Of a stretch of DNA of 28,035 bases, positions 1 to 28,035 are shown piece after piece; the first letter of the stretch is position 1; every line of letters starts with the position of its first letter. Source of the DNA: a virus (taxonomy: Duplodnaviria > Heunggongvirae > Uroviricota > Caudoviricetes). The notes beneath the pieces were generated by a model, which worked only from the letters and a program-made list of their open reading frames with translations, did no database searches and was not told the DNA's origin. Position numbers and translations under genes: made by a program. Location of the stretch: the IMG/VR virus record IMGVR_UViG_2563366924_000006, positions 1 through 28,035 of that record; one strand, given 5' to 3'.

Positions 1-159
1 AACCTGTAGAGACTTAATTTTACCCAAAGTAATACCCAGTATTTATATGGTTTTGTATATTAAATCATATGTGCCGCCGTCATGGAACACAGTTAGAAAC
101 AATGCGAAATGTTATCAAACATGATGTTCACCCTAACCCTTTTTTGAGTTGGTCATCGG

Positions 160-445
160 AAAACCGTCACAACCGTCACACCCTTTCAAAACACCTCATA
201 ACCACATGAAATAATTATCGAAAAGTTGTGACGGTAAAACCATCACAAACCGCAACAGAAACCGTCACAGAAAAAATAATTCTTAAAATTCATGTGATTA
301 AAAAATGCATATGTGATCATTATAAACCGTCACACCGTGATGGTTTTGTGATGCTTTTGTGATGGTTTTCATTTCTTGATTTATTTATATATATCATATA
401 GATAATAATACTTTTTAAACCTTGTGACGTTTGTGACGGTTTTCC
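160..445. repeat. Array of about 11 copies of a 9-bp repeat AACCGTCAC (variant AACCATCAC) in both orientations, in AT-rich non-coding DNA; candidate replication origin or arm-type protein-binding sites
   Basis: Direct copies at about 162-170, 171-179, 238-246, 259-267, 325-333; inverted copies (GTGACGGTT / GTGATGGTT) at about 228-236, 337-345, 348-356, 359-367, 424-432, 433-441. A very AT-rich stretch at about 361-420 lies between repeat blocks. No convincing ORF. Confidence 0.6.
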
Positions 446-1068
446 GATGCCCCCCCTCAAATTTTGAAAACTTCGCTATTGGCTGGATTTCACCCTGAAT
501 TGTTGGTTGTTTTGTATGTGTAAGTGTTGTGGGTTAGTTATGGTGATATCGGTGTGTGATGTACAAGTGGTGCACAGGGCTGACAGTGCAAGTCATTGCA
601 ATGGCGTAAAAGCTACCAACAAGACGCAACCCCGCACCAGATAAGGCTTTGCCAAACTCAGCCATGAACGATCGCCAATAAAATCCGTATGTCAGGAACT
701 CACGAAAACCACCTAACTCATTGTTATTATTTGTGTTGATTTTCATCCTCGAAATTTGGCCTGCCCGCTCAACTGAAATCCACTGAAATTCATTACATTC
801 TGTGCAATTGCCATTTATCTCGGAATCCCCAGCACTGGCGCGGCCTGCGGGGAGCAATTGCACAAATCCCCAACTGAAAAAACTTTATGACGCAAAGAGC
901 GCAGGCGGGTGCGGTGTAGCGCGGTTTCCGTGATGCGATTCGTTCCGTGGGTGGCTGCGGCTGCGTTTCTGCGGGCCGCTGTGGTGACGATCCTTTCTTG
1001 CCCATGCGTTGACGTGATGGCGCTTTTGCGTGGCCTGTGGTGCGTTCTGGGGGCTGTATTTGAGGTAC

Positions 1069-1092
1069 AAAAAAGCCCGCGCGCGGCGGGCT
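1069..1092 (-). terminator. Rho-independent terminator of the late tail operon
   Basis: GC-rich inverted repeat AGCCCGC / GCGGGCT (about 1074-1080 and 1086-1092) with a 5-nt loop, followed on the minus-strand transcript by a U-run (plus-strand A-run 1069-1073). Lies about 20 nt downstream of the stop of the last tail gene (1112). Confidence 0.6.
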
Positions 1093-1111
1093 ATCTCATG
1101 GTGCTGGCAGG

Positions 1112-2809
1112 TCAGGCAATTAAGCCTTTGTATTTATTCTTTGTGGCTGTTGCAGCCGTGGCCGCTGTCGTGAAGTCGGCGGCATTCGTCGGTGCGCCAG
1201 TGTTCTGATGCGTATGCGCAGCACAGAACGTGGCTACCTGCTGCATCAGGTCAATAGTTTCCAGCATCATCTGCAAGGTGTTCACTGATTCACTGCCTAT
1301 ATGAACCGTTGGCCCCATCACCTGCTGCCCGCCGGCGGCAACACTCTTACGCAATCCCGCTATCTTCTCAGTCAGCGCCGCGCATTCTGTAGTGATGTTG
1401 CCGTTGACTTTAGTTGACTGATTGCCACCGACTTCTGTCGTGGCGTCCTGCGCCACATGCGCGACGTAGTTTGCCTGGGTTCCGATGGCGTAATCACCGG
1501 TGCTGGCCTGTTGAATGGCACCGGCCATGAGCCTGGCTGGCCCCATCACTTTGGTTGTATCACCGGCGTGGATAGTCGTATCACGCTGCGTGATTGTGCG
1601 GCTTTCCGTGTCGGCCTTAACCTCACGGTGCATGGATGATTCCGCAATCGTCTGGTCAGTGGTGCGCTGCATATGCCCTTCAACGGTGACGCGCGTTGCC
1701 ACGCCTTCACGTTGCTGCTGCAGCTGCTCGCCGGGCTTCACATTCGGCAGGCTGGTACCGTCCGGTAACGTCTGGCGAATAAAGGGCTTATCCGGGCGAC
1801 CATCCATAAATGCCACTTCAACCAGTGTCCCGACCGGCGGGAACTGGAACATGCCGCTGTCATGGCCAGCCATTGGCACCGGCAGCTGGACCGCTTTATA
1901 AACCGGTGTATCTCTTACCGGGTTGCCGTCTGCGTCCTGCAGCTGCAGATCCACGGCATAGCGTGGCCGAAACTCGTTAGCAATGTTGCCACTGCTCACC
2001 GGCTCAGAATGCGCAATCACCCTCGCAACCCGGGGAACATGCAGCCCGCCGGCAATCTCCGGACACACGGCCTCAAGCTGGCGGCGTATCAGGGGCTTAG
2101 TTAACGGATTGCCGGCGGCATCAAGCGGCGTCCATGTCAGCATCATGTCATCGTTCATCAGCCCGACTTTCGTTACCCGCTGACCATTCACCATCGCACC
2201 CGGTCGCAGTGTTGGCACCATCGGGATTGTCATCGTATCGCCGGCTGCTGATGCCTGGCTGAACTCATGCGGAATATCGACCGGCTTATTTGCCAGTAAG
2301 CTGTGCGCATAGCTGCCGGTGAACATGTCGCCATCAGGCAGCTGATACCAGACATAATCAGGAATGCTGAAGGATTTCCCCAGAATGGCCAGCAGCTGCC
2401 AGCCAGTGCCGGCATGGGTGAAATGGGCAATTGGTTTGTCGGTGTAGTCGGCGTTAGCGGGAAGCGTAAACGCCAAACCAGTATGGCTTCCCAGCCATTC
2501 AGCAACGATGCGTAAAGTAGGATGCTGGAACGAGCAGGGAATTGGCTTATCAAGTTTACCCGCCAGCTCCCGCACAAACAGTTTCGCGCTGCCGTTCTCT
2601 GCCGGCTGCGACCGCTCAACATACCCGGTAAACCAGCGATACATCATATCCGGGTATCCAATATCAAGGCGCACCAGTTTGCCGGTGTAATCATCACTGG
2701 TCACGGCGGTAATAAAACCCCGACCGCCTGATGACATTTCCAGTACCAGATTGACATCAGACAGGGGAATTTCGTCACCAGAAAGATAAAGACGTTTAAT
2801 CGGGCGCAT
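1112..2809 (-). CDS. Baseplate central spike protein, gpV/gp5-like, possibly a hub-spike fusion (565 aa)
   Basis: Motif FPPVGTLVEVAFMDGRPDKPFI resembles the gpV/VgrG OB-fold signature; C-terminal HTHQNTGAPT resembles the gpV spike-tip motif. Last gene of the tail operon, stop overlaps the start region of the upstream gene. N-terminal half not confidently assigned. Confidence 0.5.
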   Translation of the reverse strand: MRPIKRLYLSGDEIPLSDVNLVLEMSSGGRGFITAVTSDDYTGKLVRLDIGYPDMMYRWFTGYVERSQPAENGSAKLFVRELAGKLDKPIPCSFQHPTLRIVAEWLGSHTGLAFTLPANADYTDKPIAHFTHAGTGWQLLAILGKSFSIPDYVWYQLPDGDMFTGSYAHSLLANKPVDIPHEFSQASAAGDTMTIPMVPTLRPGAMVNGQRVTKVGLMNDDMMLTWTPLDAAGNPLTKPLIRRQLEAVCPEIAGGLHVPRVARVIAHSEPVSSGNIANEFRPRYAVDLQLQDADGNPVRDTPVYKAVQLPVPMAGHDSGMFQFPPVGTLVEVAFMDGRPDKPFIRQTLPDGTSLPNVKPGEQLQQQREGVATRVTVEGHMQRTTDQTIAESSMHREVKADTESRTITQRDTTIHAGDTTKVMGPARLMAGAIQQASTGDYAIGTQANYVAHVAQDATTEVGGNQSTKVNGNITTECAALTEKIAGLRKSVAAGGQQVMGPTVHIGSESVNTLQMMLETIDLMQQVATFCAAHTHQNTGAPTNAADFTTAATAATATKNKYKGLIA

Positions 2810-3324
2810 TAATCCACCACCTTACCAAGCGCATTATTGACGGGGTTCAATACCTTGCTTTCAAACCACGTCAGCTTCTGATCGCTTTCTTTCGCGGCGC
2901 TGCTGCTTGCGTCACCGGTGCCAGCTGATTGTTTTGCCGCTGCAGTACCATTTCGGGAATCGTTTCTTGCCTGGCGCTTTTCCGGAACGCTGTGTTTTTC
3001 ACGCAGCGTAAACTGGACACCCCAAGCCATTTTCCCATCCTGTTCCTGCGCCTCCAGCTTGCCCGCAAAATTGACCTGGCGAATGCCTACCGTGTTTGCT
3101 GTCAGGTTGGCCACACGGTAAAGTGCCAGCGCTCCACCGGCTGTCGTTGCGCTGGCCAGTGCAAAAAGACGCTTCAGCGTCTTTTCTTCAGAGAAGGGGA
3201 TCACCCCGCTTACCTGTAGCTCTTTGGCTTTAATACCCTGCTCTGCGCGGGTCGTGCTCGATGTCTGTCCTGACTGGTCTTTATCCTGATACTGCATCCC
3301 CAGCGTGACGCGCAGATTTTTCAT
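2809..3324 (-). CDS. Hypothetical tail-operon protein (about 171 aa from ATG at 3324)
   Basis: ORF track extends to 3366 through a TTG codon; the first ATG is at 3324 (MKNLRVTLGMQYQ...). Backbone-like GC. Low-complexity Ser/Ala/Gly-rich C-terminal region. No family recognised. Confidence 0.45.
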   Translation of the reverse strand: MKNLRVTLGMQYQDKDQSGQTSSTTRAEQGIKAKELQVSGVIPFSEEKTLKRLFALASATTAGGALALYRVANLTANTVGIRQVNFAGKLEAQEQDGKMAWGVQFTLREKHSVPEKRQARNDSRNGTAAAKQSAGTGDASSSAAKESDQKLTWFESKVLNPVNNALGKVVD

Positions 3325-3358
3325 GATGATGGCCTCGCCATCAAGAGCCAGAATGATG

Positions 3359-4060
3359 TTAGCCAATCATTGCCTCCAGTGCGCTCAAATCACTTCCTGT
3401 GAAAAGAATGGCTGCAGTATGTACCGCATCCGGATGAGGTAGATTTTTTACCAGCTCCACCGCTGTTGTCAGCGCCGGCCCCTTCATATTGAAAAACCAC
3501 GCTTTCGCCGTTTTCCCCTGCAATTCAGTCATTGCGCTTGCGATGTCTGCCAGTGCTGCGGTGCGCTCCTGAAGAAAACCCGCCAGCCCCGTGGTTATCG
3601 AACTCACACTGGCAGCTGCGGCCGCTTCAAGTTTTGCCGCCTCAATACGCGCAGCGTTCAATGCCTGCCGTGTCGTTTCTGTTGCGACGTTAATTGGGGC
3701 AGGTAATGCCGAAAGCACATCCGGCAGCTGCATTTTCACCTGTTCCAGTTCCCCAAAAGACTGCGCCAGCCGGCGCACCTGTTTCAACTCCGGCATGGGC
3801 AGGACTGAGGCAACGGAATCAAGGGATGAAAGTAAATCGCTGTGCGTGTTTTCGCATAGCATCATGATGATGTTGTGCGAGCCGGCCCCCTTCTCCAGCA
3901 GGCGCTTGCCCAGATAAGAGATGGCATTTAGCGGGCTGAGATAGCCCCCCGATTGGGTATGTTGGCCCAGTTCAGGCACCCATGGGTGAGCAGGGATAAC
4001 ACTGCAGGATAAAGAGGTTAATTGCGCCGGTATGCGCAAGGTGGCCTGTGTCCATGCCAT
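3359..4060 (-). CDS. Hypothetical tail-operon protein (about 233 aa from ATG at 4060)
   Basis: ORF track start at 4063 is GTG; the ATG at 4060 overlaps the TGA stop of the upstream fibre assembly gene (TGATG), suggesting translational coupling. Ala-rich predicted helical segment. No family recognised. Confidence 0.5.
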   Translation of the reverse strand: MAWTQATLRIPAQLTSLSCSVIPAHPWVPELGQHTQSGGYLSPLNAISYLGKRLLEKGAGSHNIIMMLCENTHSDLLSSLDSVASVLPMPELKQVRRLAQSFGELEQVKMQLPDVLSALPAPINVATETTRQALNAARIEAAKLEAAAAASVSSITTGLAGFLQERTAALADIASAMTELQGKTAKAWFFNMKGPALTTAVELVKNLPHPDAVHTAAILFTGSDLSALEAMIG

Positions 4061-4587
4061 CACGGGCGCTCCGGCCAGATGATTTCAGGTGCGGTACTAA
4101 TATCAAGACGGCGCAGAGCAGTACGATAAATACGCCATGCGGCGAGTTCTGCCAATTCTTCAGAAGTTATATCGCCATCATCCTGCGCTTCAGCCAGCGA
4201 GTTAATACGCGCACTGGCTAATGCCATTTCACTGTCGCGCCGCTGTGTCGCTACGGCTAGAGCATCAACAGGCACGGGAATGATTTTTCCCTGGCTAAAC
4301 AACCACTCACCCGATTCACCATTAAAAGCCTCCGGGACATCGCTCATATTGATTTCAGCGACGGAGAGATTAACTGGCCTGAGCATGGTGGCATCTGATG
4401 ATGCGGCGATAATACGACCACTATGATCATAGGTAAATTTCAACGTGTCCTCTGCAAATTGTGCACGCCGGTGATACCAGTCGATCCCCTGGTCATCTTC
4501 ACAAAATTCAATATTGAAAGATGCTTTTAAATCCTCCTGAACCGGCGTCAGGTCTGTACTAATCTTGAAGTTTTGAAAATTTTTCAT
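4060..4587 (-). CDS. G: Tail fibre assembly protein (P2 gpG-like chaperone)
   Basis: 175 aa, immediately downstream of the tail fibre gene; C-terminal region (ELAELAAWRIYRTALRRLD...) resembles the tail-fibre-assembly domain. Confidence 0.75.
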   Translation of the reverse strand: MKNFQNFKISTDLTPVQEDLKASFNIEFCEDDQGIDWYHRRAQFAEDTLKFTYDHSGRIIAASSDATMLRPVNLSVAEINMSDVPEAFNGESGEWLFSQGKIIPVPVDALAVATQRRDSEMALASARINSLAEAQDDGDITSEELAELAAWRIYRTALRRLDISTAPEIIWPERP

Positions 4588-4588
4588 T

Positions 4589-6781
4589 TTACTGCCCTAC
4601 GTTCATCCATGAACCGTTGATATTAATCTGGAGCGGGCGGCGTTGAATAATATCCACAATATCGTCAGGTGTAGTGGGAGAGTTATTTACTACGCCTGTA
4701 ATGACATATCCCAACTGATCGTTATATCCCAGCGCACGATAAATTACTGCGTTCTCTACAGCACCAAATCGTAATCCCTGCATAAATCGACCATTCGCCC
4801 AGTTATAAATATCATTGCGTAAGTCTATGTTTGCCCATGCTATCGTTGCATAGGGGCTTAAATCCTGCTGCGGTTGCGGGTTCCTGGGGGAATATACCCG
4901 CGAGCCACTTTCATAAACCACGCTGGCATTGAAAGTTCCGGCAGTGGATAAAGCGCCCTGGGGTGTACTCCATGAGAAGATTTCACGCCCTCCGGTATTG
5001 TCTTCCTGCAGGCGAATACTGGCACCATCCATTACCAGCAAAATTGTTTTGCCAGTATCAGATTCATTTAAAGCGATAGTCGGTACTGGCCCGGTAATAT
5101 CCATTGTACCTATGGCAGAAAGTCGCCCGGAGGTGCCGAGTGTATTTCCATCCCAGGAGAATGCTGTTTTACCATCACCAGTATTGTCTTCCTGCAGTCT
5201 GATCGCCGTGCCATCAGCAACCAGATAGAATTTCTTCCCGGAATCCGTTTCACTAAACACAATCGTTGGTGAACCTCCCTCCAGAGTGACTGGATAACTT
5301 GCAGAATTATTTTTAAACGTAACTGGCCCGGTAACATCCCCTCCAGCAGCGGAAAGCGCCCCAATGTTAGCCGGGGACAGCGTAATATCACGCGAGCCGT
5401 CAAAGGCAACGGTGTTGATTTTTCGTGCTGTTTCAAGTTTTTTGGCTGCTACCGCCGTTCCATCTGATGGCAGCGCCCCGACATCATCGGCAGTGGGTTT
5501 ATTGTCCGTGGTATAAAACGTCGTCCAGTTATTCCATGTATCACTGTCGCCGTTTTTTGTCCTGAGTTTTACCAGCCCCTGCTGCATATAGCTGGCGGCT
5601 AGTTGAACGTTGTAACGCCCTCCCAACCCTGAGAAATCCATAACTGAACTCTCAAACCCGGGTGAATGGGTGGCTGATGCATAAACAAAACTGACTGAGT
5701 TTTCCGGTAAATTGTTCGCATCGGTTGCAAATGAACCTGCCACACCCGATGCAACAGCCGAGCGAACAGCGAGAGCATTTCCATTAATCACAATCCGGTC
5801 AGGAGTAGTATCTTCTCTGGAAGTCTGGACATTTGCTGTCGCACCACTGCCTAACTGCAGACTCTTTCTGCTTTCTGCCGGGTCACTGAGATCACTTAAA
5901 TTTTTATCTTTGCGCAAAAAATCGTTATTTGCCTGCTGTTCCCCCTTGCTGCCTTTGGGGCGTAAGTCCGTCACGGAACCATCAGCATTGATTTGTGCGA
6001 CAGCAAAAACATAATGATTTACGTCATTTTTCACGTAATCAGCCAGCGTATCAGCCAGGGTAATCGTTGTATTAACCTGCCAGACACTGGTAAGAGTGCC
6101 GGTAAAACTGGTATCGACCCAGACTTTTACCGGTTTAGTGGCCACCGTGAGCGCCTGCTCTGCTGCCAGTACGGCACGCAACCCACCGACATAACCTGTA
6201 CCTGCAGTGACACTGTAATTGTTCCCGGATCGCTTAACCAAAAAGCCATCCCCGATAAATGCACCGGTGCCATAAACATCGATATTTTCAACCCGGTGGC
6301 GCTCATCCATCCCCGCCAGACGAGCAGTGAAATCAATCTGCCAGGTGCCTGCAGGCGTGGTGATTTGAGTTTCTTTTTTTGCCCCGTCGTACTCCATCAG
6401 AAATGAGCGCGTCAGCACGTTACCCTGAGTGCCAGCGTTGTTTTTTACCTTCTGCTGCAATGGGGCATGAACAATCATGGCCAGCGTGTTGCTGGTCTTA
6501 TCTCTCAGCCCTACCCAGTTAAATGAAAAATCGCCAACATCCGCGCCCAGCGTGATGGAATACACCACAGCGTTAGCATTCACCACACCCGTTTTTCCCA
6601 CGCTGGCGCGATGCACAATTTGCCCTGCAGTTGGCATTGCTTCAGCGGGATCGATAGGGTCTGTGATGTTCAGATTTGGAACATTGGCAAACACAAATTC
6701 ATCCAGTACAACGGGGGTATTGGCTGCAGCCTGTTGCGCTTTTAGCGCCTCAAAAGCTGTGGTGATAACGGTCTGTGACAT
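4589..6781 (-). CDS. H: Tail fibre protein (P2 gpH-like)
   Basis: 730 aa. N-terminus SQTVITTAFEALKAQQAAANTP and C-terminus NINGSWMNVGQ resemble the conserved N- and C-terminal ends of P2 gpH (recalled KYINGTWYNVAQV); Gly/Thr/Ser-rich repetitive central region. Confidence 0.85.
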   Translation of the reverse strand: MSQTVITTAFEALKAQQAAANTPVVLDEFVFANVPNLNITDPIDPAEAMPTAGQIVHRASVGKTGVVNANAVVYSITLGADVGDFSFNWVGLRDKTSNTLAMIVHAPLQQKVKNNAGTQGNVLTRSFLMEYDGAKKETQITTPAGTWQIDFTARLAGMDERHRVENIDVYGTGAFIGDGFLVKRSGNNYSVTAGTGYVGGLRAVLAAEQALTVATKPVKVWVDTSFTGTLTSVWQVNTTITLADTLADYVKNDVNHYVFAVAQINADGSVTDLRPKGSKGEQQANNDFLRKDKNLSDLSDPAESRKSLQLGSGATANVQTSREDTTPDRIVINGNALAVRSAVASGVAGSFATDANNLPENSVSFVYASATHSPGFESSVMDFSGLGGRYNVQLAASYMQQGLVKLRTKNGDSDTWNNWTTFYTTDNKPTADDVGALPSDGTAVAAKKLETARKINTVAFDGSRDITLSPANIGALSAAGGDVTGPVTFKNNSASYPVTLEGGSPTIVFSETDSGKKFYLVADGTAIRLQEDNTGDGKTAFSWDGNTLGTSGRLSAIGTMDITGPVPTIALNESDTGKTILLVMDGASIRLQEDNTGGREIFSWSTPQGALSTAGTFNASVVYESGSRVYSPRNPQPQQDLSPYATIAWANIDLRNDIYNWANGRFMQGLRFGAVENAVIYRALGYNDQLGYVITGVVNNSPTTPDDIVDIIQRRPLQININGSWMNVGQ

Positions 6782-6799: not shown

Positions 6800-7333
6800 T
6801 TATTTTGATGCGGTATAAACCACGTAATCACCGGTGAACCACCCGGCACGAACATCCAGCTCGTTAATGGTGATCACTTCATAATCATAGCGGCGGCAGG
6901 TTCGGCCATACTGGCGAATAATTTCCCGTAACAGTGCGCCGTTCGCCGCTATCTGGCCATCACTCACCCGGATGGTGATAACGTCCCAGTCCTTTCCCTG
7001 CTGCCGTTCCTGAAGCTCCACATAACCGATACCCAGCCGATGAAATATCGCAATAAATCCTTCGACGCTGCCGGCATCACGCGCATTTATCCATGCATAG
7101 GCCACACGCTTGCGAAACAAATCGAGAGGCTCGCCACTGAAACGGGTGATATCCCGCTCCCATGCCAGCAGATTCAGGAGGGCTTCCGGGCACGTCAGGG
7201 GGTCGAACTGTTTTGATGGCCATAACAACCAGTCATACAGCCATTGCCAGAACTTTTTGCAGGCGGTCAGCAACTTTGCCAGCTCGCCTTTGTCCATCCA
7301 GAACGGGAGTTTTAGCTTAGAAAAATCAGGCAT
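6800..7333 (-). CDS. I: Baseplate protein, P2 gpI-like
   Basis: 177 aa (P2 gpI is 176 aa); motif DPLTCPEALLNLLAWERD resembles recalled P2 gpI DPDTCPANLLPWLAWAFSVDRW; lies between J-like and H-like genes as in P2. Confidence 0.7.
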   Translation of the reverse strand: MPDFSKLKLPFWMDKGELAKLLTACKKFWQWLYDWLLWPSKQFDPLTCPEALLNLLAWERDITRFSGEPLDLFRKRVAYAWINARDAGSVEGFIAIFHRLGIGYVELQERQQGKDWDVITIRVSDGQIAANGALLREIIRQYGRTCRRYDYEVITINELDVRAGWFTGDYVVYTASK

Positions 7334-8507
7334 TCTTCAGCTCCACAGTAAGCGATGTCAGGCGCGGCACTTCCAGCTGGCTGGTGATGTCTTTGATGGA
7401 AAACTCCACCGAATCGACACCGCTCAGTAATTCGTGCAACTCCCTGCCAAGCTGTGAAAATGAGAAACGCGAATAAGGCCATGTCTTCACCACATCCCAG
7501 GCAGTATTTTCACGAAATGCGCAACGGATCAGGCTTTCGACATCACTTTTTAGCGCGGCTTGCGCTTCATCGCTTAGGTTGGAAAGATTGACCACGTACA
7601 CCGTTGCCGTCAGGTCACGGTGCGTTTCGGGCATGGCCATGCATTGCATATCATCGCCATGGCCGTGATGCCCCTGCGTATTGATAAAATCATTGACCGC
7701 ATCAATAAACGGCTGCGATGCCTGACCACTGTCGAGCAGCAGATATGCGTTTGCCGTACCGGGCCCGCGCGGTGCGTCATGCTTAAAGAAGATGCGATCC
7801 ACTGACAGCGCCACCACTTCCGCAATCATGCTGCGGTAAATCGCATCGGTATGATAATTACCTACCAGGTTGAACTGGTTGCGGCAACGTTCGCGCAGTT
7901 CATCATCTGATTCGTCATCGCCACCCGGTTGCGTCAACCAGTCATCCTCTGTCACCGCGCTGGCAATGCCAGGCACGGCCACCGGCAGAATACGGTAATA
8001 ACCGGGTGCCAGATTCCATGCAGCCCCCGCGCCATTGGCCTGTACTGGCACCAGAGCTGAAGCGACGTTTGCCGGGATGATTGTGTCAGCGGTGACGGCA
8101 AGCTGATAAATAACGCCATTAATCCGCTCAGTCTGCACAACCGTACCGGCTGGCACTGTTGCCACCTGGCCGGCGGTAATTTTGGTAAAACGCACTACCC
8201 CCTGCGCCGCGCTGGCGGGTTTCGGTGTGACATTCAGCCCCCACGCCAGCAGACGCAAAAGCGAGCCGGTCGCAGTGGCCACAAACATGTTGGCCATGAC
8301 AATGTTAATCAGCGCACTGATGATCCACATCACCGGCGTGGTGATTAGTGCCGTGACCAGACGCCAGAACGGAGACATGCGGGAGGTATTCGTCACAAAC
8401 CCCTCGGCTTTCACCAGGCGGTTAAATTCCGCTTTTACGGCTTCTTCAGTAACCGGCATTCCTGCATCCTGCAGGACTTTTTCAAAATCAGCCTTCGGCT
8501 TTTCCAT
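7326..8507 (-). CDS. Baseplate J-like protein (gpJ / gp6 family)
   Basis: Contains the Baseplate_J-type acidic motif GGDDESDDELRERCRNQ. Start placed at the ATG at 8507, which has a strong GAGGGAG ribosome-binding site; the ORF track extends it to 8549. Confidence 0.75.
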   Translation of the reverse strand: MEKPKADFEKVLQDAGMPVTEEAVKAEFNRLVKAEGFVTNTSRMSPFWRLVTALITTPVMWIISALINIVMANMFVATATGSLLRLLAWGLNVTPKPASAAQGVVRFTKITAGQVATVPAGTVVQTERINGVIYQLAVTADTIIPANVASALVPVQANGAGAAWNLAPGYYRILPVAVPGIASAVTEDDWLTQPGGDDESDDELRERCRNQFNLVGNYHTDAIYRSMIAEVVALSVDRIFFKHDAPRGPGTANAYLLLDSGQASQPFIDAVNDFINTQGHHGHGDDMQCMAMPETHRDLTATVYVVNLSNLSDEAQAALKSDVESLIRCAFRENTAWDVVKTWPYSRFSFSQLGRELHELLSGVDSVEFSIKDITSQLEVPRLTSLTVELKNA

Positions 8508-8829
8508 AATCCACTCCCTCGGATAGCGGCCCAAAATCATAGGTATCACCGGTGATAAGCAGCCTGGTCAGGCTTTCTTCTTCCACCTCTACCGTTCCCG
8601 GAACAATCCTTTCATCACCTTCTACCAGCAGGATTATCTGGGTGAAAATGTCGCTGCGCAGTGTCGGGCTGCGCTCTGCAATTAACGCTGTAGCCAGACC
8701 GCTTTCCATCACCGCATGTACCAGGTCCTGCCCAATGCTGTAGCGGTTATTGCAGGTCATTGGCTCATTGCCGGCATTCAGCACGATATCGCCGCCGGTG
8801 ATGAGCAAATCTATAAATAAATCACTCAT
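8488..8829 (-). CDS. Small baseplate protein, possibly gpW/gp25-like
   Basis: About 113 aa from the ATG at 8829, which overlaps the tape-measure stop (ATGA). Size and position before the J-like gene match gpW; sequence resemblance is weak. Confidence 0.4.
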   Translation of the reverse strand: MSDLFIDLLITGGDIVLNAGNEPMTCNNRYSIGQDLVHAVMESGLATALIAERSPTLRSDIFTQIILLVEGDERIVPGTVEVEEESLTRLLITGDTYDFGPLSEGVDYGKAEG

Positions 8830-22376: not shown

Positions 22377-25031
22377 CTATTTATCCCGACTGAACACCCA
22401 GCAGCGGAATGTTTCTGGCATTCGCTGCATTTCCCCTTTGCCCTTGTTCGCCCGTTCGCTAACCGCACTACGTTTCGTCGTTTGGCCTATGAAACGTCGC
22501 TCACTGCTGCTTTTAAGGAGTTTTTTGATTTCCGTTAATGTGAAATTCATACGCTGCCGGTGAGCTGCGGCGACTTCCTCCATGTGATTAAAGTTAACGG
22601 CTATTTCACTGTCATCTGTTGAATGATTTATACCGAACGGCGCAAGTTCATCAAGATAATCAAACAGCTCCCAGAACTCCTGAACAAGTGGATGATCCTT
22701 TTTGAGTGCATGGCAGCGCTCGATGGCCAGCGCGGTGATGGCTTCACGTGTTTTATGAATACGGTCAACAGAAAGAGGCACAACAAGCGCCAGCGCTTCG
22801 AGCAACCCCGCTAATTGAGCATGGTTTTTCGCTACACGGATATGACGAATATCAGGGTGTGTTTCCAGTTCATTACGGGCGCGTTCATAACCACGGCCAT
22901 AAGCTTCCAGCACTTCCTGTTCTCGCATAATGGACTGCAGAGTAAAGCCTGAAACCTGGCTAACCGGTATTTGCTCAAGGCGTTCAGCTGCGTGGCGGGT
23001 ATGAATAGACTGGCCACGTTTATCGGTATAGATATGAATGATACGCTCCAGAAATGCCTTGCTGCCGTCTGTATCCGCATTCTGTGCTATCACGATAGCG
23101 CCCCGGAATGGCGGCTCGTATGTCTCGTTATTGTTAGATTTGATACCCACGGCGCGGGATGCGCGACCGTTATAAAGGGATTTCAGCTCATCCCAGTCAA
23201 AAGCGCGCTGTTTAGCATTATCCGTGGTGCGGTCACCTTCTATCAGCACTACAGGCAAATTCCCTACCTGTGCAAAGTTACGGCCACGCGCTGCAGGTGT
23301 AGATTTTGACGGGTCAAAACCTTCATATTCTTCACGGCCAGCAAGCTTCCAGAGAAATTCTATCAGGGTAGATTTACCCGTGCCGGGTTCACCGACAATT
23401 TCCAGAAACGGGAAAGATTTATCACGCTCGCGTATCTGTTCAGCAAATAACGAACCCAGCCAGAACGCCAACGCCACATATCCTTTTTCACCAAATGCCG
23501 TCCAGATATCATCCACCCAACCCGTAGTGAACTCATTCAATTTTGGATTTAGATCCAGTGATGGCGTTAGGCTCAGACTTTTAACGCTGGCACTGTTGAT
23601 TTCGAAATAATCCTCATCGTTCATCTCATACAGCTTGCCACTGCAGACCGCCACTCGGTTAAACAACCAGGCTGAATAATCTTTGTTATAGCCGATAAAA
23701 TTCTGCGTTTTCACTTCTTTGATTTCTGGAAGCCGCAACTGGATAAACTTATCCAGCTGTTTGGTACTGCCGGTGTAAACCGCACCTTTAGCAATATGCA
23801 AAAGGCGCTTTTTAAATTCTGCAGAGCTGGTCAGTTGATTCGCAGTAAACGTGTCCTTAATCGCGGGGTGATTGGGCATATTTACTTTCACGTAATACCA
23901 AGATTCATCCGTCGGCTCAGAGCGCTGGTAATACAACGGAGTCAGCCAGCAGTTGGCGATTTCAGTCACGCAGCCAGATTCTTTCACTGCCCGCGCCTTG
24001 GCTTCCCATTCCATCACCACTTCCTGCCCGGAATTAGCGATACGGTCATAGGCTCTCATGTATCTGTCCAGGTCCAGTTCGAACCAGTACATGCGGGAAC
24101 CATGCTCAAAATAGAAGGAATGCCACTCATTATGCTGATGCATCAGCAGGGCTTTTTCAGTCGGGCTTTTTGCCAGCAGAAGATCGCCAAAATAACGATA
24201 GTTTTTGATGTCCGATTTGCTAAATCTGTCGCGGATTAGCAGGTCATTCCAGTCAAGTTCAACTGCTGTTTTGAGCGGCTGCGCCGCCCGGACATCCCAG
24301 CCAGCAGACTTGCTGCGTGATGCAAATGAAAGGGTGTGTTTCGTTCCGGCCTTATCGCCATCAAAGGCCCAAACCAGACGTGGCCGGGGTTTCTCACCCA
24401 GTTCTTTAGCCAGCGCATCGAGCGAGGCCAGAGGATAGTTATTGCTACTGAGTGTAGCCACAGCGGGTAAACCGGCCTGGCATAAACTGAGAGCGTTAAA
24501 AATACCCTCAGTTATCCAGATTTCTTTTGCATCAGGCAGGTGGATAAACGGCGGCACCCACCAGTGACCACCGTAATTGCCTGAGAAATGCGCCTTCTGT
24601 TTGAAACGGTCTGGCTGGTCAATGATGCGCTCCCATGTAGCGCCGTTGGCCAGCTTAAATTTAACAGTGGCACTACCCAGCCCATGACGGACAAACGCGC
24701 CCTGGGTAAAACAACCTTTGAGAATGTCAGTATCAAGGCCACGCGCTTCACGTAAATACGCTTCTGCCGCAGCAGCCGGTGATTCGACTGTTGCGACATA
24801 CCGCTTTGACCAGTCCTCAAAAATATCGGAATACAGCTCTTTGACTGCGACCTCCTTACCGCATTTATTTTCACGGCCACATTTAAGAAGCCAGGGCTTT
24901 TCCGCACTGGTAAATAGTTCGCGTTTCTGGCAAGCAGGGCAAACACCCTGCTGTAAATATTTATCTTTCTCTTTAAATTCAAAATCATTAATGAGACGGC
25001 GAACAACTTCCTGTTGTATGGATACGTTCAT
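22377..25031 (-). CDS. Phage P4 alpha-type primase-helicase replication protein
   Basis: 884 aa; N-terminal zinc-ribbon (CPACQ...CGRENKCG), primase/Toprim-like acidic region (EGIFNALS, WAFDGDKAG), Walker A GEPGTGKST in the central helicase-like domain, long C-terminal domain. Confidence 0.85.
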   Translation of the reverse strand: MNVSIQQEVVRRLINDFEFKEKDKYLQQGVCPACQKRELFTSAEKPWLLKCGRENKCGKEVAVKELYSDIFEDWSKRYVATVESPAAAAEAYLREARGLDTDILKGCFTQGAFVRHGLGSATVKFKLANGATWERIIDQPDRFKQKAHFSGNYGGHWWVPPFIHLPDAKEIWITEGIFNALSLCQAGLPAVATLSSNNYPLASLDALAKELGEKPRPRLVWAFDGDKAGTKHTLSFASRSKSAGWDVRAAQPLKTAVELDWNDLLIRDRFSKSDIKNYRYFGDLLLAKSPTEKALLMHQHNEWHSFYFEHGSRMYWFELDLDRYMRAYDRIANSGQEVVMEWEAKARAVKESGCVTEIANCWLTPLYYQRSEPTDESWYYVKVNMPNHPAIKDTFTANQLTSSAEFKKRLLHIAKGAVYTGSTKQLDKFIQLRLPEIKEVKTQNFIGYNKDYSAWLFNRVAVCSGKLYEMNDEDYFEINSASVKSLSLTPSLDLNPKLNEFTTGWVDDIWTAFGEKGYVALAFWLGSLFAEQIRERDKSFPFLEIVGEPGTGKSTLIEFLWKLAGREEYEGFDPSKSTPAARGRNFAQVGNLPVVLIEGDRTTDNAKQRAFDWDELKSLYNGRASRAVGIKSNNNETYEPPFRGAIVIAQNADTDGSKAFLERIIHIYTDKRGQSIHTRHAAERLEQIPVSQVSGFTLQSIMREQEVLEAYGRGYERARNELETHPDIRHIRVAKNHAQLAGLLEALALVVPLSVDRIHKTREAITALAIERCHALKKDHPLVQEFWELFDYLDELAPFGINHSTDDSEIAVNFNHMEEVAAAHRQRMNFTLTEIKKLLKSSSERRFIGQTTKRSAVSERANKGKGEMQRMPETFRCWVFSRDK

Positions 25032-25071
25032 ATTTAATCCAGATGAAAATAATTCAACGAAAAGGCAAAAA

Positions 25072-25290
25072 TCAGAATTTTATCTGTTTGTTATACCGCT
25101 CATGCGTCATTAATACCCAACGCTGACCTTTATCTTTACTAAGTAAACGCCAGCGTAAAGAAACATGAATAGATAAGTAATGTTTTGGTTTAATGACCTG
25201 ATAAACTTTTCTGCCATCGTAGTATTCACTAAGCATTGAAAATGACTTGTTAATGACATTTTCATTTGCATGAGAAGTCACAATTAACAT
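25072..25290 (-). CDS. Small basic hypothetical protein (54-72 aa) in the AT-rich cargo block
   Basis: ORF starts immediately after the stop of the exonuclease gene; very AT-rich; no clear ribosome-binding site; no family recognised. Confidence 0.3.
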   Translation of the reverse strand: MLIVTSHANENVINKSFSMLSEYYDGRKVYQVIKPKHYLSIHVSLRWRLLSKDKGQRWVLMTHERYNKQIKF

Positions 25291-25292
25291 AG

Positions 25293-25853
25293 CTATTTCA
25301 CACTGTTTTTTATGCCAAGGAACATCCAGATATAAGAAACAATTTTGATATTATGAAGCGCATGTGCCAGTGAGTTACGCTGAAAGTCATATTTAATAAT
25401 GCTATTCATATTCAGCCCAAGTTCTTCTGCTATTGTCACCATGGTAATGACACTCTGCTCATTAGCTTCAAGAAAACACTGACCGGCGAACCTGTCCAGG
25501 TAATGATGTATCACCTTGCTATGCATGGACGGACAACCAAACCAGGTCTTGACGTATTTGGCATCAGAATTTTCAATGATAAACCCGTACAGGTCACAGA
25601 TAGCCAGCTCAATATCCTGACAATCATCATCCAGTATCTGACTGCGAACCTCTGAAGGCTGACGTAACCACCACTGGATAGCGTGGGCACTTACCGTACC
25701 GCCATTACTCATACAGTCATCAAGGCTGATACGTCTGTAGAATTGCTTACCAACCTCCCCAGTTGTAGGGTCAAAGAAAACGGCGCTTAAACCCGTAATA
25801 GCTGCGGTGTGCTTTTCGTCCATCAGTTCTACATCAATCATTAAATGTTGCAT
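25293..25853 (-). CDS. 3'-5' exonuclease, T4 DexA-like (DEDD-type)
   Basis: From the ATG at 25853 (AAGGA ribosome-binding site): MQHLMIDVELMDEKHTAAITGLSAVFFDP... resembles the recalled T4 DexA N-terminus (DFETMG..EKAAVIDLSVIAFDP); second block HAIQWWLRQPSEVRSQI versus STIEWWKNQSPEARKNI. The ORF track N-terminal extension to 25973 is hydrophobic and lacks a ribosome-binding site. Confidence 0.65.
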   Translation of the reverse strand: MQHLMIDVELMDEKHTAAITGLSAVFFDPTTGEVGKQFYRRISLDDCMSNGGTVSAHAIQWWLRQPSEVRSQILDDDCQDIELAICDLYGFIIENSDAKYVKTWFGCPSMHSKVIHHYLDRFAGQCFLEANEQSVITMVTIAEELGLNMNSIIKYDFQRNSLAHALHNIKIVSYIWMFLGIKNSVK

Positions 25854-25866
25854 GTGGATATCCTTA

Positions 25867-26199
25867 TCAGGAAACGTGGCGAGAATTGGAGGAAGTATTA
25901 CGCTTACGCGCAACACTATTAGCAGCCAGAGATATAAGGCCGGGAACACTGCTTTCTTCAGGAACCTGACCACTGAACACCATTAATGTGATGGTGTGCA
26001 ATTCTTCATAGTCTGTTATGTCATTATTAAAATGCGCAGATGACGAAATACCTTCAAGGCATTTTGCCAATTTGATATTCAACTCCATCAACTGCAAAGC
26101 ATCGCTATGAATAGCTGACTGGTCAGTATTGATGTTTTCAATTTGATTATGATAATTCTGCAACAAACTACGAATTATCGTGGCGTATTTTGCTTTCAT
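25867..26199 (-). CDS. Hypothetical early protein (about 110 aa) in the AT-rich cargo block
   Basis: First gene after cox on the same strand; AT-rich; basic Ser-rich C-terminus; start uncertain (ATG at 26199 or GTG at 26232); no family recognised. Confidence 0.35.
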   Translation of the reverse strand: MKAKYATIIRSLLQNYHNQIENINTDQSAIHSDALQLMELNIKLAKCLEGISSSAHFNNDITDYEELHTITLMVFSGQVPEESSVPGLISLAANSVARKRNTSSNSRHVS

Positions 26200-26976: not shown

Positions 26977-27042
26977 TTATCTGGTTTTTCTATTCTTTAT
27001 CACAAAAATTACACAATGATTTTAACATCGGAGGGCTTCGCT

Positions 27043-28035
27043 ATGTCGATTAAGAAGCTTGATGATGGTCGTTTTGAAGTGGATGTAAGACCGCGCGGGA
27101 CTTCAGGAAGAAGAATCCGGCGTAAATTTGACAGAAAGGCAGAGGCCCAGACATTTGAGCGGTACGTACTGACAAACTTTCACGATAAAGAATGGCAGGA
27201 CAAACCGGCAGATCAAAGGCTCGTATCTGAATTGATTACTTTATGGTGGAGTTATCACGGGAAAAATCACAACTATGGTGATTCTTACCGAAAGCGTCTG
27301 GAGAAGATCCACCGCGAAATGGGCGAACCCAGAATCTACATGCTGACCCGTAACTTTTTGATGAAGTATCGCGCTACCAGGTTGCAAAGCGGTGTATCAG
27401 CAGGAACGGTAAACAGAGATTTCAGTGCTATGTCCAGCATGTTTAGCCTGCTGATCGACATGGAAGAATTCCACCATGAAAATCCCTTCCATAGCGTGCG
27501 TAAGCTGAAACTGGAAAACACAGAAATGTCGTTCCTGTCAGAGGATGAAGCTCGGGAATTGCTGAATGCTTTGACTGATGATGACCGCAGAGTTGTAGTC
27601 CTCAGCCTGAATACAGGTGCGAGGTGGGGGGAAGCCAGCAATCTCAAGGCTGAACATGTTATCAGTAATAAGGTGACTTTTGTGAAGACCAAAACAGGCC
27701 CAGCGCGTACCGTTCCGGTTTCACAGGAGGTTGCTGATTATATCCTCACCCGGAAATCAGGAAAGCTTTTTAAAACTGACTACCAGCGCGTTCGTGAGGT
27801 GCTTCGTAAGATAAAGCCCGATTTACCTAAAGGTCAGGCACTGCATGTTTTGCGGCACACCTTCGCAACTCATTTCATGATCAATGGCGGGAATATCATT
27901 ACCCTTCAGAGAATACTGGGGCATACAACGATTGAGCAAACCATGACGTACGCTCACTTTGCCCCGGACTATCTGGCTGATGCAATCAGGTTTAATCCCA
28001 TGAAAGGGAGTGTCCATATAACGTCCACTGACTAG
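27043..28035 (+). CDS. int: Tyrosine integrase, P2 Int-like
   Basis: 330 aa from the ATG at 27043 (GGAGGG ribosome-binding site): MSIKKLDDGRFEVDVRPRG... resembles recalled P2 Int MAIKKLDDGRYEVDIRP; catalytic region LSLNTGARWGEASNLKAEHV, HVLRHTFATHFMINGG and the Tyr in TMTYAHF; TAG stop is the last codon of the window. Confidence 0.9.
   Translation: MSIKKLDDGRFEVDVRPRGTSGRRIRRKFDRKAEAQTFERYVLTNFHDKEWQDKPADQRLVSELITLWWSYHGKNHNYGDSYRKRLEKIHREMGEPRIYMLTRNFLMKYRATRLQSGVSAGTVNRDFSAMSSMFSLLIDMEEFHHENPFHSVRKLKLENTEMSFLSEDEARELLNALTDDDRRVVVLSLNTGARWGEASNLKAEHVISNKVTFVKTKTGPARTVPVSQEVADYILTRKSGKLFKTDYQRVREVLRKIKPDLPKGQALHVLRHTFATHFMINGGNIITLQRILGHTTIEQTMTYAHFAPDYLADAIRFNPMKGSVHITSTD

What the first reader, a model, noticed from the sequence alone, without database searches (positions are those of the whole stretch)
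2809..4060. Two unassigned proteins between the tail fibre assembly gene and the hub/spike gene, at the position of the P2 Z/fun variable locus
In P2 the locus immediately downstream of gene G (Z/fun) is a known site of accessory and anti-phage cargo. Here that position holds two proteins (about 233 and 171 aa) with no recognisable structural signature, each with a start that differs from the ORF track (ATG at 4060 and at 3324). Against a cargo interpretation, their composition is backbone-like and the first is translationally coupled to G (TGATG). They could be divergent baseplate components, such as a tube-initiator or hub fragment, or a domesticated accessory pair.
Basis: inference. Interest (0 to 1): 0.45.

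Follow-up and report, generated by a model that had tools for sequence, protein, structure and literature searches.

The report
Conserved HP1-type phage baseplate genes
The two "unassigned" genes are not variable cargo but backbone tail genes of an HP1-type P2-family prophage: one is the adaptor ring that starts the tail tube on the baseplate hub, and the other is a conserved protein, reported as a minor virion component in a distant relative, whose fold and role are still unknown.

Summary
Both ORFs are real, expressed-looking genes on the minus strand, inside the late tail operon of a nearly complete HP1-subgroup Peduoviridae prophage. They are the homologues of HP1 orf33 and orf34.

ORF2 (2809-3366) is a full-length member of Pfam PF25759, "HP1 ORF34 baseplate complex protein". 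Its model has a tail-tube fold, and its best matches are ripcord and tube-initiator proteins. It is most likely the tube initiator, the functional counterpart of P2 gpU. Its start is the TTG at 3366 (185 aa), not the ATG at 3324: the 14 extra residues are conserved across the family.

This family has no Pfam entry, no solved relative and no convincing fold match. A distant homologue was detected in ACA1 virions by mass spectrometry.

The block orf33-orf34-orf35 is present in 88 of 92 loci examined. The genes overlap or abut, their composition matches the backbone, and they stay conserved where the neighbouring fibre tip and its assembly gene are swapped. The analogy with P2 Z/fun fails.

The finding is ordinary. 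The only open point is what orf33 does.

The parts
3359..4060 (-). ORF1, 233 aa: homologue of HP1 orf33 / K139 orf37 (phrog_1677). A conserved HP1-subgroup tail-module protein, reported as a minor virion component in a distant relative. Fold unknown.
   Evidence: - Family: phrog_1677 E 6e-53. hhalign to HP1 orf33 gives probability 99.4%, E 4.5e-21 over 226 columns.
- Size of family: about 200 representatives at 50% identity clustering.
- No known relative: no Pfam, NCBIfam or PDB hit, even with a 94-sequence profile.
- Virion: the ACA1 gp46 homologue was seen in virions by MS (PMC10612066 Table S2).
2809..3366 (-). ORF2, 185 aa from the TTG at 3366: homologue of HP1 orf34, Pfam PF25759. A tail-tube-fold protein, inferred to be the tube initiator (functional counterpart of P2 gpU).
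   Evidence: - Family: PF25759 at 193.8 bits, cut-off 27. phrog_1398 E 1.8e-59.
- Structure: the AF2 core at residues 50-125 has pLDDT about 90.
- The N-terminus is conserved.
3373..3377 (-). GGAGG Shine-Dalgarno sequence, 6 nt upstream of the TTG start of ORF2 and inside the 3' end of ORF1.
   Evidence: Read directly from the sequence.
1112..2809 (-). orf35 homologue, 565 aa: hub (gpD-like) and spike (gpV/VgrG-like) fused in one polypeptide. Its ATG overlaps the ORF2 stop (TAATG).
   Evidence: - phrog_2258 'baseplate protein' E 1e-233. Phage_base_V OB domain at residues 308-344.
- Weak VgrG and gp5 hits in the PDB.
- The fusion in HP1 is noted in PMC10612066 Table S1.
4060..4587 (-). Tail fibre assembly protein (Caudo_TAP). 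Its stop overlaps the ORF1 start (TGATG). Together with the fibre C-terminus it forms the exchangeable host-range cassette.
   Evidence: - Pfam PF02413 E 1.2e-27.
- GC3 is 0.443.
- Identity to L011 is only 44%, where the neighbouring genes are 92-98% identical.
1074..1092 (-). Intrinsic terminator-like hairpin with a T-run, directly after orf35: the likely end of the late tail operon.
   Evidence: a 7-bp stem with 6 G-C pairs, followed by TTTTTT. K139 has an annotated terminator at the equivalent place.

Best explanation
The window is a nearly complete prophage of the HP1 subgroup of the P2 family (Peduoviridae). In this subgroup the late tail operon runs: tape measure - DUF2590 (gpW-like sheath initiator) - J - I - fibre - fibre assembly - orf33 - orf34 - orf35 - terminator. 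The two genes in the finding are orf33 and orf34 of this conserved layout. They are not cargo.

ORF2 (orf34):
- It is a tail-tube-fold protein.
- Inferred: six copies form the ring that sits on the trimeric hub domain of orf35 and templates polymerisation of the tube protein. This is the job gpU does in P2.
- Inferred: the strongly conserved loop KDQSGQTSST (residues 29-38) is the long tube-fold hairpin that lines the channel or contacts neighbouring subunits.
- Inferred: the flexible Ala/Gly/Ser-rich linker (about residues 133-165) and the terminal amphipathic helix (LTWFESKVLNPVNNALG) could tether the ring to the J/I wedge, as the C-terminal helix of gpU does in P2.

ORF1 (orf33):
- It is made from the same coupled transcript.
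- Most likely it is a low-copy structural component of the central baseplate (hub / tube-initiator / wedge interface).
- By elimination it is the only HP1-type tail gene without a P2 counterpart. P2's LysM 'glue' protein gpX is the only P2 baseplate protein without an HP1-type counterpart. So orf33 may fill that bridging role with an unrelated fold.

What is shown: family membership, the fold of ORF2, the synteny, the gene overlaps and the backbone behaviour.
What is inferred: the stoichiometry, the contacts and the role of orf33.
For: Prophage type:
- HP1-type genes are present: HP1_Orf24 tube, DUF2586 sheath, DUF2590, and P2-type capsid, portal, terminase and cox.
- The gene order matches HP1, K139, ESSI-2, YenM324 and phiO18P.

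ORF2:
- PF25759 at 193.8 bits, against a cut-off of 27.
- The core at residues 1-130 is conserved across 12 phage genera.
- HHpred in the literature linked the ACA1 homologue to PF06995 (gpU), marked there as uncertain (PMC10612066 Table S1).
- In P2, gpU is the hexameric tube initiator and has a C-terminal helix that contacts the wedge (10.64898/2026.09.14.750843).

ORF1:
- It is an HP1 orf33 homologue.
- It lies directly upstream of orf34 in 88 of 92 loci, and the genes overlap in 87 of 88.
- It stays 96% identical in L011, where the fibre C-terminus and tfa drop to 50% and 44%.
- Its GC3 is backbone-like.
- In phage records it occurs in every enterobacterial, Pseudomonas, Aeromonas, Pasteurella and Haemophilus record that has orf34.
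- ACA1 gp46, labelled 'HP1 orf33', was detected in virions at an abundance like gpW and gpV.

No gpX-like gene:
- No LysM or gpX-like gene was found, and there is no free coding space in the late operon.
Against: ORF2:
- There is no statistically supported sequence link to gpU. None of 46 members hits Pfam PF06995. hhalign against a 9-sequence gpU profile gives probability 0.1-0.2%.
- The orf34 homologue of ACA1 was not detected by MS.

ORF1:
- The family is absent from the complete genomes of Vibrio phage yong1 and Pseudoalteromonas phage C5a. It is also absent from the tail ends of Vibrio phage 10N.286.55.C3_PE002 and Salinivibrio phage SMHB1. So an HP1-type baseplate can apparently be built without it.
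- The structural model is weak: only one of five models exceeds pLDDT 60. It matches no baseplate protein.
- The MS evidence is 2 spectra, in a preparation with some cellular contamination, for a homologue only 16% identical to HP1 orf33.
- It is the fastest-evolving backbone protein: about 41-44% identity where J, I, orf34 and orf35 are at 57-68%.
Confidence: 0.72

Rival explanations
1. The two genes are accessory or anti-phage cargo (possibly domesticated) sitting at a variable locus equivalent to P2 Z/fun.
For: - They lie immediately downstream of the fibre assembly gene, which is where Z/fun lies in P2.
- ORF1 has no recognisable domain.
Against: - They are on the same strand as the late operon, with overlapping start and stop codons and no terminator before orf35.
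- They are present in 88 of 92 related loci across many genera.
- They stay conserved exactly where the adjacent fibre/tfa cassette is exchanged.
- Their composition matches the backbone.
- Neither has a PADLOC hit.
- ORF2 is a tube-fold baseplate protein.
- In P2, Z/fun is on the opposite strand behind a terminator.
Confidence: 0.02
2. ORF1 (orf33) is not a stable structural part of the virion. It would be an assembly factor for the hub / tube-initiator / tape-measure complex, in the way T4 gp51 serves hub assembly (from general knowledge of T4), with only traces carried into virions.
For: - It is dispensable in a whole marine clade.
- It diverges fast.
- The long helical hairpin at residues 90-182 is typical of chaperone-like or scaffolding proteins.
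- Only 2 spectra were seen in ACA1 virions.
Against: - It was detected in virions at a normalised level similar to bona fide baseplate proteins: 0.09, against gpW at 0.08 and gpV at 0.06.
- The scaffold domain was not detected in the same preparation, which suggests non-structural assembly proteins were absent from it.
- The Yersinia phage homologue is annotated 'structural protein', though the basis is not stated.
Confidence: 0.2
3. ORF1 (orf33) belongs functionally to the fibre module, as an adaptor or second chaperone for the tail fibre, rather than to the hub.
For: - It directly follows the fibre assembly gene, with a TGATG overlap.
- The phages that lack orf33 (yong1, C5a, 10N.286.55.C3_PE002) also lack a separate Caudo_TAP gene and carry long 'tail-collar' fibres.
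Against: - It does not travel with the fibre-tip/tfa cassette. In L011 and L013 orf33 is 91-96% identical, while tfa is 44% identical or undetectable.
- Its GC3 matches the hub genes, not fibre/tfa.
- Aeromonas phage A051 has orf33 without an annotated tfa. SMHB1 has a small post-fibre gene (function not established) without orf33.
- In ACA1 a whole DGR cassette separates the fibre from orf33, which stays next to orf34.
Confidence: 0.08

Closest known systems
Haemophilus phage HP1 orf34 family (Pfam PF25759, 'baseplate complex protein'; phrog_1398)
   Same: ORF2 is a full-length member. It scores 193.8 bits over profile positions 3-178 of 180. It occupies the same position between orf33 and orf35. 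It has the same conserved core and a variable linker followed by a terminal helix.
   Different: Nothing substantive. It is 32% identical to HP1 orf34 itself and 54-57% identical to the ESSI-2, SW3 and YenM324 proteins.
P2 gpU / pyocin R2 PA0626 'ripcord' (tube initiator of P2-type contractile tails; Pfam PF06995)
   Same: - The gene sits directly upstream of the hub gene.
- Similar size: 159 aa against 185 aa.
- A core followed by a flexible C-terminal segment ending in a helix, as described for gpU in the P2 cryo-EM preprint.
   Different: - No detectable sequence homology.
- In P2 the gene follows the tape measure gene. Here the W-J-I-H-G block and orf33 lie between them.
HP1 orf33 / K139 orf37 family (phrog_1677), function unknown
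   Same: ORF1 is a member: phrog E 6e-53, and hhalign to HP1 orf33 gives 99.4%. It is in the same position, directly upstream of and overlapping orf34.
   Different: - ORF1 is the short form at 233 aa. K139, phiO18P and many others carry an extra N-terminal stretch of about 55 aa, giving about 290-300 aa.
- It is only about 23% identical to HP1 orf33.
P2 gpX (LysM 'glue' protein of the baseplate)
   Same: Only a possible functional analogy for ORF1, reached by elimination. It is a small baseplate accessory that bridges the sheath initiator, triplex and hub in P2.
   Different: - ORF1 has no LysM domain, a different size (67 aa against 233 aa) and no profile similarity (hhalign probability 0.5%).
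- The gene location differs: gpX sits next to the lysis genes in P2.
P2 Z/fun locus
   Same: It lies downstream of the fibre assembly gene G.
   Different: - Z/fun is on the opposite strand, behind a terminator, and is non-essential (annotated in the P2 record).
- P2 is a member of the other (P2) subgroup, with a different tail-gene order.
- The genes here are co-transcribed, overlapping and conserved.

Membership tests
Pfam PF25759 HP1_ORF34 baseplate complex protein (ORF2) | Score above the curated gathering threshold, over the full length of the profile | tested here: met
   193.8 bits against a cut-off of 27, over profile positions 3-178 of 180, for the 185-aa form. All 46 homologues also match.
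Tube initiator / ripcord class of contractile-tail baseplates (ORF2) | Tail-tube (Hcp/gpFII-like) fold | tested here: met
   [not shown]
Tube initiator / ripcord class of contractile-tail baseplates (ORF2) | Distinct from the major tube protein, and encoded next to the hub gene | tested here: met
   The major tube protein is the separate HP1_Orf24 family gene at 12667-13125, next to the sheath gene. ORF2 overlaps the start of the hub-spike gene orf35.
Tube initiator / ripcord class of contractile-tail baseplates (ORF2) | Forms the hexameric ring between the hub trimer and the first tube ring in the virion | not testable with these tools
   This needs cryo-EM of an HP1-group baseplate. MS of ACA1 virions did not detect the homologue.
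P2 gpU family, Pfam PF06995 (ORF2) | Sequence or profile similarity to gpU | tested here: not met
   - None of 46 members hits PF06995 at E <= 10.
- hhalign gives probability 0.1-0.2% against P2 gpU and against a 9-sequence gpU profile.
- tblastn of gpU on the window finds nothing on target.
- Published HHpred reports a weak match marked 'uncertain'.
LysM-carrying tube initiators of eCIS and some phages (ORF2) | C-terminal LysM domain | tested here: not met
   No LysM hit in Pfam. The C-terminal part is a low-complexity linker followed by a short helix.
HP1 orf33 family / phrog_1677 (ORF1) | Full-length profile similarity, and position directly upstream of orf34 | tested here: met
   - phrog_1677 E 6e-53.
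- hhalign to HP1 orf33 gives probability 99.4%, E 4.5e-21.
- Adjacent to orf34 in 88 of 92 loci.
Virion structural protein (ORF1) | Presence in purified virions | not testable with these tools
   There is only literature evidence, for a distant homologue: ACA1 gp46, 2 spectra, 6% coverage (PMC10612066 Table S2). The 'structural protein' label in the YenM324 record has no stated basis.
P2 gpX LysM glue protein (ORF1) | LysM fold or sequence similarity | tested here: not met
   [not shown]
Z/fun-type variable cargo locus (both ORFs) | Own transcription unit (terminator or promoter, often the opposite strand), content that varies between close relatives, atypical composition | tested here: not met
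   - Same strand, overlapping codons, and no credible terminator before 1092-1074.
- Conserved in 88 of 92 loci and 96-98% identical in the closest relative.
- GC3 is backbone-like.
Known anti-phage defence proteins (both ORFs) | Match to a PADLOC model | tested here: not met
   No families at E <= 0.1.

The most novel reading that the evidence does not exclude
orf33 (ORF1) is a previously unrecognised kind of baseplate component with a new fold. It would be specific to most of the HP1 lineage and would replace the LysM 'glue' protein (gpX) of P2-type baseplates, linking the hub / tube-initiator complex to the J/I wedges. Its absence in the marine Vibrio/Pseudoalteromonas clade would mark a second, still simpler, baseplate solution.
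Probability: 0.25. Interest if true: 0.4.

Novelty: new member of a known kind. Interest (0 to 1): 0.15.

Why it matters
There are three modest consequences.

1. It corrects the reading of this locus. In HP1-type prophages the genes after the fibre assembly gene are core baseplate genes. Hunts for cargo should look elsewhere, for example downstream of orf35.

2. It fixes a start codon and gives ORF2 a defensible functional name, tube initiator. Several GenBank records mislabel homologues as 'adenine glycosylase', 'nucleoid DNA-binding protein' or 'tail-collar fiber protein'.

3. It isolates orf33 as the one tail-module protein of the HP1 lineage with no assigned role or fold. That is a well-posed target for cryo-EM of an HP1-group virion, now that the P2 baseplate is solved.

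Tried and rejected
- Near-identity DNA searches of the tail region and of the left flank against phage records and complete E. coli genomes found nothing. Relatives were reachable only at protein level.
- Single-sequence and profile searches of ORF1 against PDB sequences gave only noise: TraC/VirB5 at E 0.006-0.065, and UBF at 0.33.
- Pfam scans of 94 family members gave only scattered coiled-coil noise.
- The ORF1 model gave no usable fold match:
  - Foldseek against BFVD gave E >= 0.09.
  - The afdb50 library was unavailable.
- A link between ORF2 and gpU was sought by hhalign with one gpU sequence and then with nine diverse ones. It was not significant. The first attempt to collect gpU diversity from IMG/VR returned only near-identical copies.
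- I tested whether the C-terminal helix of orf34 co-occurs with orf33. It does not: the helix is present in yong1 and SMHB1, which lack orf33, and absent in K139, which has orf33.
- I tested whether orf33 correlates with the fused hub-spike gene. The correlation is imperfect: phi3 and ACA1 have orf33 with split genes.
- No tRNA and no Rfam family was found anywhere in the window.
Full report
**What is in the sequence**

All genes in the region are on the minus strand. In the direction of transcription the order is:
- tape measure, 8826-11066
- DUF2590 protein, 8488-8847
- Baseplate_J, 7326-8549
- Tail_P2_I-like, 6800-7333
- tail fibre, 4589-6781
- Caudo_TAP fibre assembly protein, 4060-4587
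- ORF1, 3359-4060
- ORF2, 2809-3366
- a 565-aa 'baseplate protein', 1112-2809

Every junction in the last four genes is an overlap:
- TGATG between tfa and ORF1.
- TTGGCTAA between ORF1 and ORF2, with GGAGG 6 nt upstream of the TTG.
- TAATG between ORF2 and orf35.

The only strong terminator-like hairpin lies directly after the 565-aa gene, at 1092-1074.

The rest of the window carries a P2-type head module (portal, terminase, GPO scaffold, P2 capsid, small terminase, gpL, gpR, gpS). It also carries:
- a DUF2586 sheath
- an HP1_Orf24 tube protein
- holin, M15 lysin and spanins
- a tail chaperone
- a primase
- cox and repressor genes
- an ORF at the right edge (27016-28035) in the position where the integrase lies in related phages; I did not test it

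This is a nearly complete HP1-subgroup Peduoviridae prophage.

**Checking the observation**

- The identical 233-aa protein is called in public assemblies (P0001).
- Homologues begin M-x-W or M-W.

- The 185-aa form from the TTG at 3366 scores 193.8 bits on PF25759 and covers profile positions 3-178. The 171-aa form scores 177.5 bits and covers positions 13-178.
- Residues L6, A7, L8, G10 and E11 are invariant or nearly so among 46 homologues.
- In 87 of 88 related loci the conserved N-terminus of orf34 begins 4-35 nt before the end of the orf33 stop codon.

GC3 is 0.577 and 0.581. The compositional outliers are the fibre (0.465) and tfa (0.443).

**ORF2**

- It is a full-length member of Pfam PF25759, 'Bacteriophage HP1 ORF34 baseplate complex protein', and of phrog_1398.
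- An AlphaFold2 model built on 46 homologues has a confident core: residues 50-125 have pLDDT about 90. A low-confidence loop covers residues 31-44 and a low-confidence tail runs from residue 127.
- The phage already has a separate major tube gene next to the sheath, and ORF2 overlaps the hub-spike gene. Tube initiator is therefore the best assignment.
- The P2 cryo-EM preprint describes gpU as a hexameric tube initiator whose C-terminal helix reaches the wedge triplex (10.64898/2026.09.14.750843). ORF2 has the same layout: core, flexible linker and terminal amphipathic helix. That helix is not universal in the family.
- I could not show sequence homology to gpU:
  - No Pfam PF06995 hit in any of 46 members.
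  - hhalign probability 0.1-0.2% against P2 gpU and against a 9-sequence gpU profile.
  - Hardies et al. reported a weak HHpred match for the ACA1 homologue and flagged it as uncertain (PMC10612066 Table S1).
- So ORF2 works like gpU but is not demonstrably a member of the gpU family.

**ORF1**

- It belongs to phrog_1677, function unknown. It aligns with HP1 orf33 at hhalign probability 99.4%, E 4.5e-21.
- The family has about 200 representatives at 50% clustering. There is a short form of about 230-240 aa and a long form of about 290-300 aa.
- Nothing is known about its fold:
  - No Pfam, NCBIfam or PDB sequence match, even with a 94-sequence profile.
  - The AF2 model is weak: pLDDT 72.5 for the best model and 46-59 for the others. 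It predicts an alpha/beta domain built from both termini, with a long helical hairpin at residues 90-182.
- The only experimental datum I found comes from Pseudoalteromonas phage ACA1. Its gp46, labelled 'HP1 orf33' (16% identity by HHpred), was detected in virions.
  - It gave 2 spectra, with a normalised count of 0.09. That is like gpW (0.08) and gpV (0.06) (PMC10612066 Table S2).
  - The preparation had some cellular contamination.

**Cargo or backbone?**

- The block orf33-orf34-orf35 follows the fibre genes in:
  - HP1 (orf33-35) and K139 (orf37-39)
  - phiO18P and A051
  - ESSI-2 and YenM324
  - phi3, where orf33 is unannotated
  - all 80 IMG/VR relatives fetched
- In the phage collection, orf33 occurs in 50 records and orf34 in 72. 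The counts are identical for Escherichia, Pseudomonas, Salmonella, Aeromonas, Pasteurella, Haemophilus, Cronobacter and Yersinia phages.
- The closest relative, L011, shows where recombination acts:

| Gene | Identity to L011 |
|---|---|
| J | 92% |
| I | 95% |
| fibre N-terminus | 86% |
| fibre C-terminus | 50% |
| tfa | 44% |
| orf33 | 96% |
| orf34 | 98% |
| orf35 | 98% |

- The exchangeable cassette is therefore the fibre tip plus tfa. orf33 belongs to the conserved backbone, together with the hub genes.
- In P2, Z/fun is on the opposite strand, behind the V-operon terminator.
- Neither protein matches a PADLOC model.
- The cargo reading is rejected.

**What does orf33 do?**

Every other late-operon gene has a P2 counterpart, by Pfam here and by HHpred in PMC10612066:

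| P2 gene | Counterpart here |
|---|---|
| T | tape measure |
| W | DUF2590 |
| J | J |
| I | I |
| H | fibre |
| G | tfa |
| U | orf34 (by fold) |
| D + V | orf35 |

The late operon has no unassigned coding space, and no LysM or gpX-like gene. By elimination, orf33 is the HP1-lineage extra and gpX is the P2-lineage extra. This suggests that orf33 is a bridging component at the hub-wedge interface.

This inference is weakened by a real exception. A broad orf33 profile finds nothing (E <= 1) in:
- the complete genomes of Vibrio phage yong1 and Pseudoalteromonas phage C5a
- the tail ends of Vibrio phage 10N.286.55.C3_PE002 and Salinivibrio phage SMHB1

In these phages the fibre gene, or a small post-fibre gene, is followed directly by orf34, and hub and spike are separate genes.

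orf33 is also the fastest-evolving backbone protein. An assembly-factor role therefore remains a serious rival.

**Verdict**

The finding describes two ordinary, conserved tail genes of an HP1-type prophage.
- ORF2 is already covered by a Pfam family. I assign it as the tube initiator.
- ORF1 is a new member of a known but uncharacterised family.
- The Z/fun analogy is not supported, and one of the two proposed start codons is wrong.
- The only residual interest is the unknown fold and role of orf33.

Noticed in passing
window 4060-5350 (fibre C-terminus and tfa): The fibre C-terminal part and the fibre assembly gene form a host-range cassette. Their GC3 is 0.44-0.47, against 0.58-0.62 for their neighbours. 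In the closest relative (L011) they are only 50% and 44% identical, while flanking genes are 86-98% identical. In L013-L015 they are not detectable at all.
   Followed up: partly
L009, L010 (whole genomes); L093, L094 (tail ends): A marine clade (Vibrio phages yong1 and 10N.286.55.C3_PE002, Pseudoalteromonas phage C5a, Salinivibrio phage SMHB1) lacks any orf33 homologue. In these phages hub and spike are separate genes, and in the two Vibrio phages a 65-aa ORF follows the spike. How their baseplate does without orf33 is unexplained.
   Followed up: partly
window 1112-2809: orf35 is a single-polypeptide hub-spike fusion. It has an N-terminal region of about 240 aa, an OB domain at 308-344, gp5-like beta-helix repeats around 438-506, and a C-terminal HTH motif near the tip. 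It shows weak VgrG and gp5 matches only.
   Followed up: partly
window 1-1110: The stretch downstream of the operon terminator has low GC (0.35 in 1-500). It has no convincing ORF, no tRNA, no Rfam hit and no match in complete E. coli genomes. In relatives, the equivalent position after orf35 holds accessory genes: HicAB in phi3, an acyltransferase-like gene in Vibrio phage 10N.286.55.C3_PE002, and small hypothetical genes in YenM324. This, and not the post-tfa position, is the likely cargo or attachment end.
   Followed up: partly
window 25001-26000: There is a low-GC patch (0.35 at 25001-25500) next to an Rv2179c-like 3'-5' exoribonuclease gene at 25293-25973 (GC 0.44) in the early region. 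A gene with the same annotation is present in Vibrio phage yong1, gp12.
   Followed up: no
window 14658-15359: The gpS-like tail completion protein is 233 aa. Only residues 14-77 match the Phage_tail_S profile, and P2 gpS is 150 aa. The C-terminal half is unassigned. HP1 orf22 is similarly long.
   Followed up: no
L001, L006, L007, L094 (GenBank/RefSeq annotations): orf34 homologues are annotated as 'adenine glycosylase' (YenM324, SMHB1, PY3), 'nucleoid DNA-binding protein' (phi3) and 'tail-collar fiber protein' (yong1). In phi3 the orf33 homologue and the hub gene are not annotated at all.
   Followed up: yes
window 3359-3400 (ORF1 C-terminus): The conserved C-terminal motif F-x-G-x-x-L-x-x-[LI] of orf33 (ILFTGSDLSALEAMIG) was aligned by hhalign to the first LysM strand and helix of P2 gpX (LQGDTLDAI). 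The probability is only 0.5%, so this is most likely chance.
   Followed up: partly
window 3700-3970 (ORF1 residues 30-115): There is a weak, sub-significant sequence similarity to TraC of pKM101: E 0.006 with the single sequence and 0.065 with the profile. It was not seen with the broader profile.
   Followed up: partly
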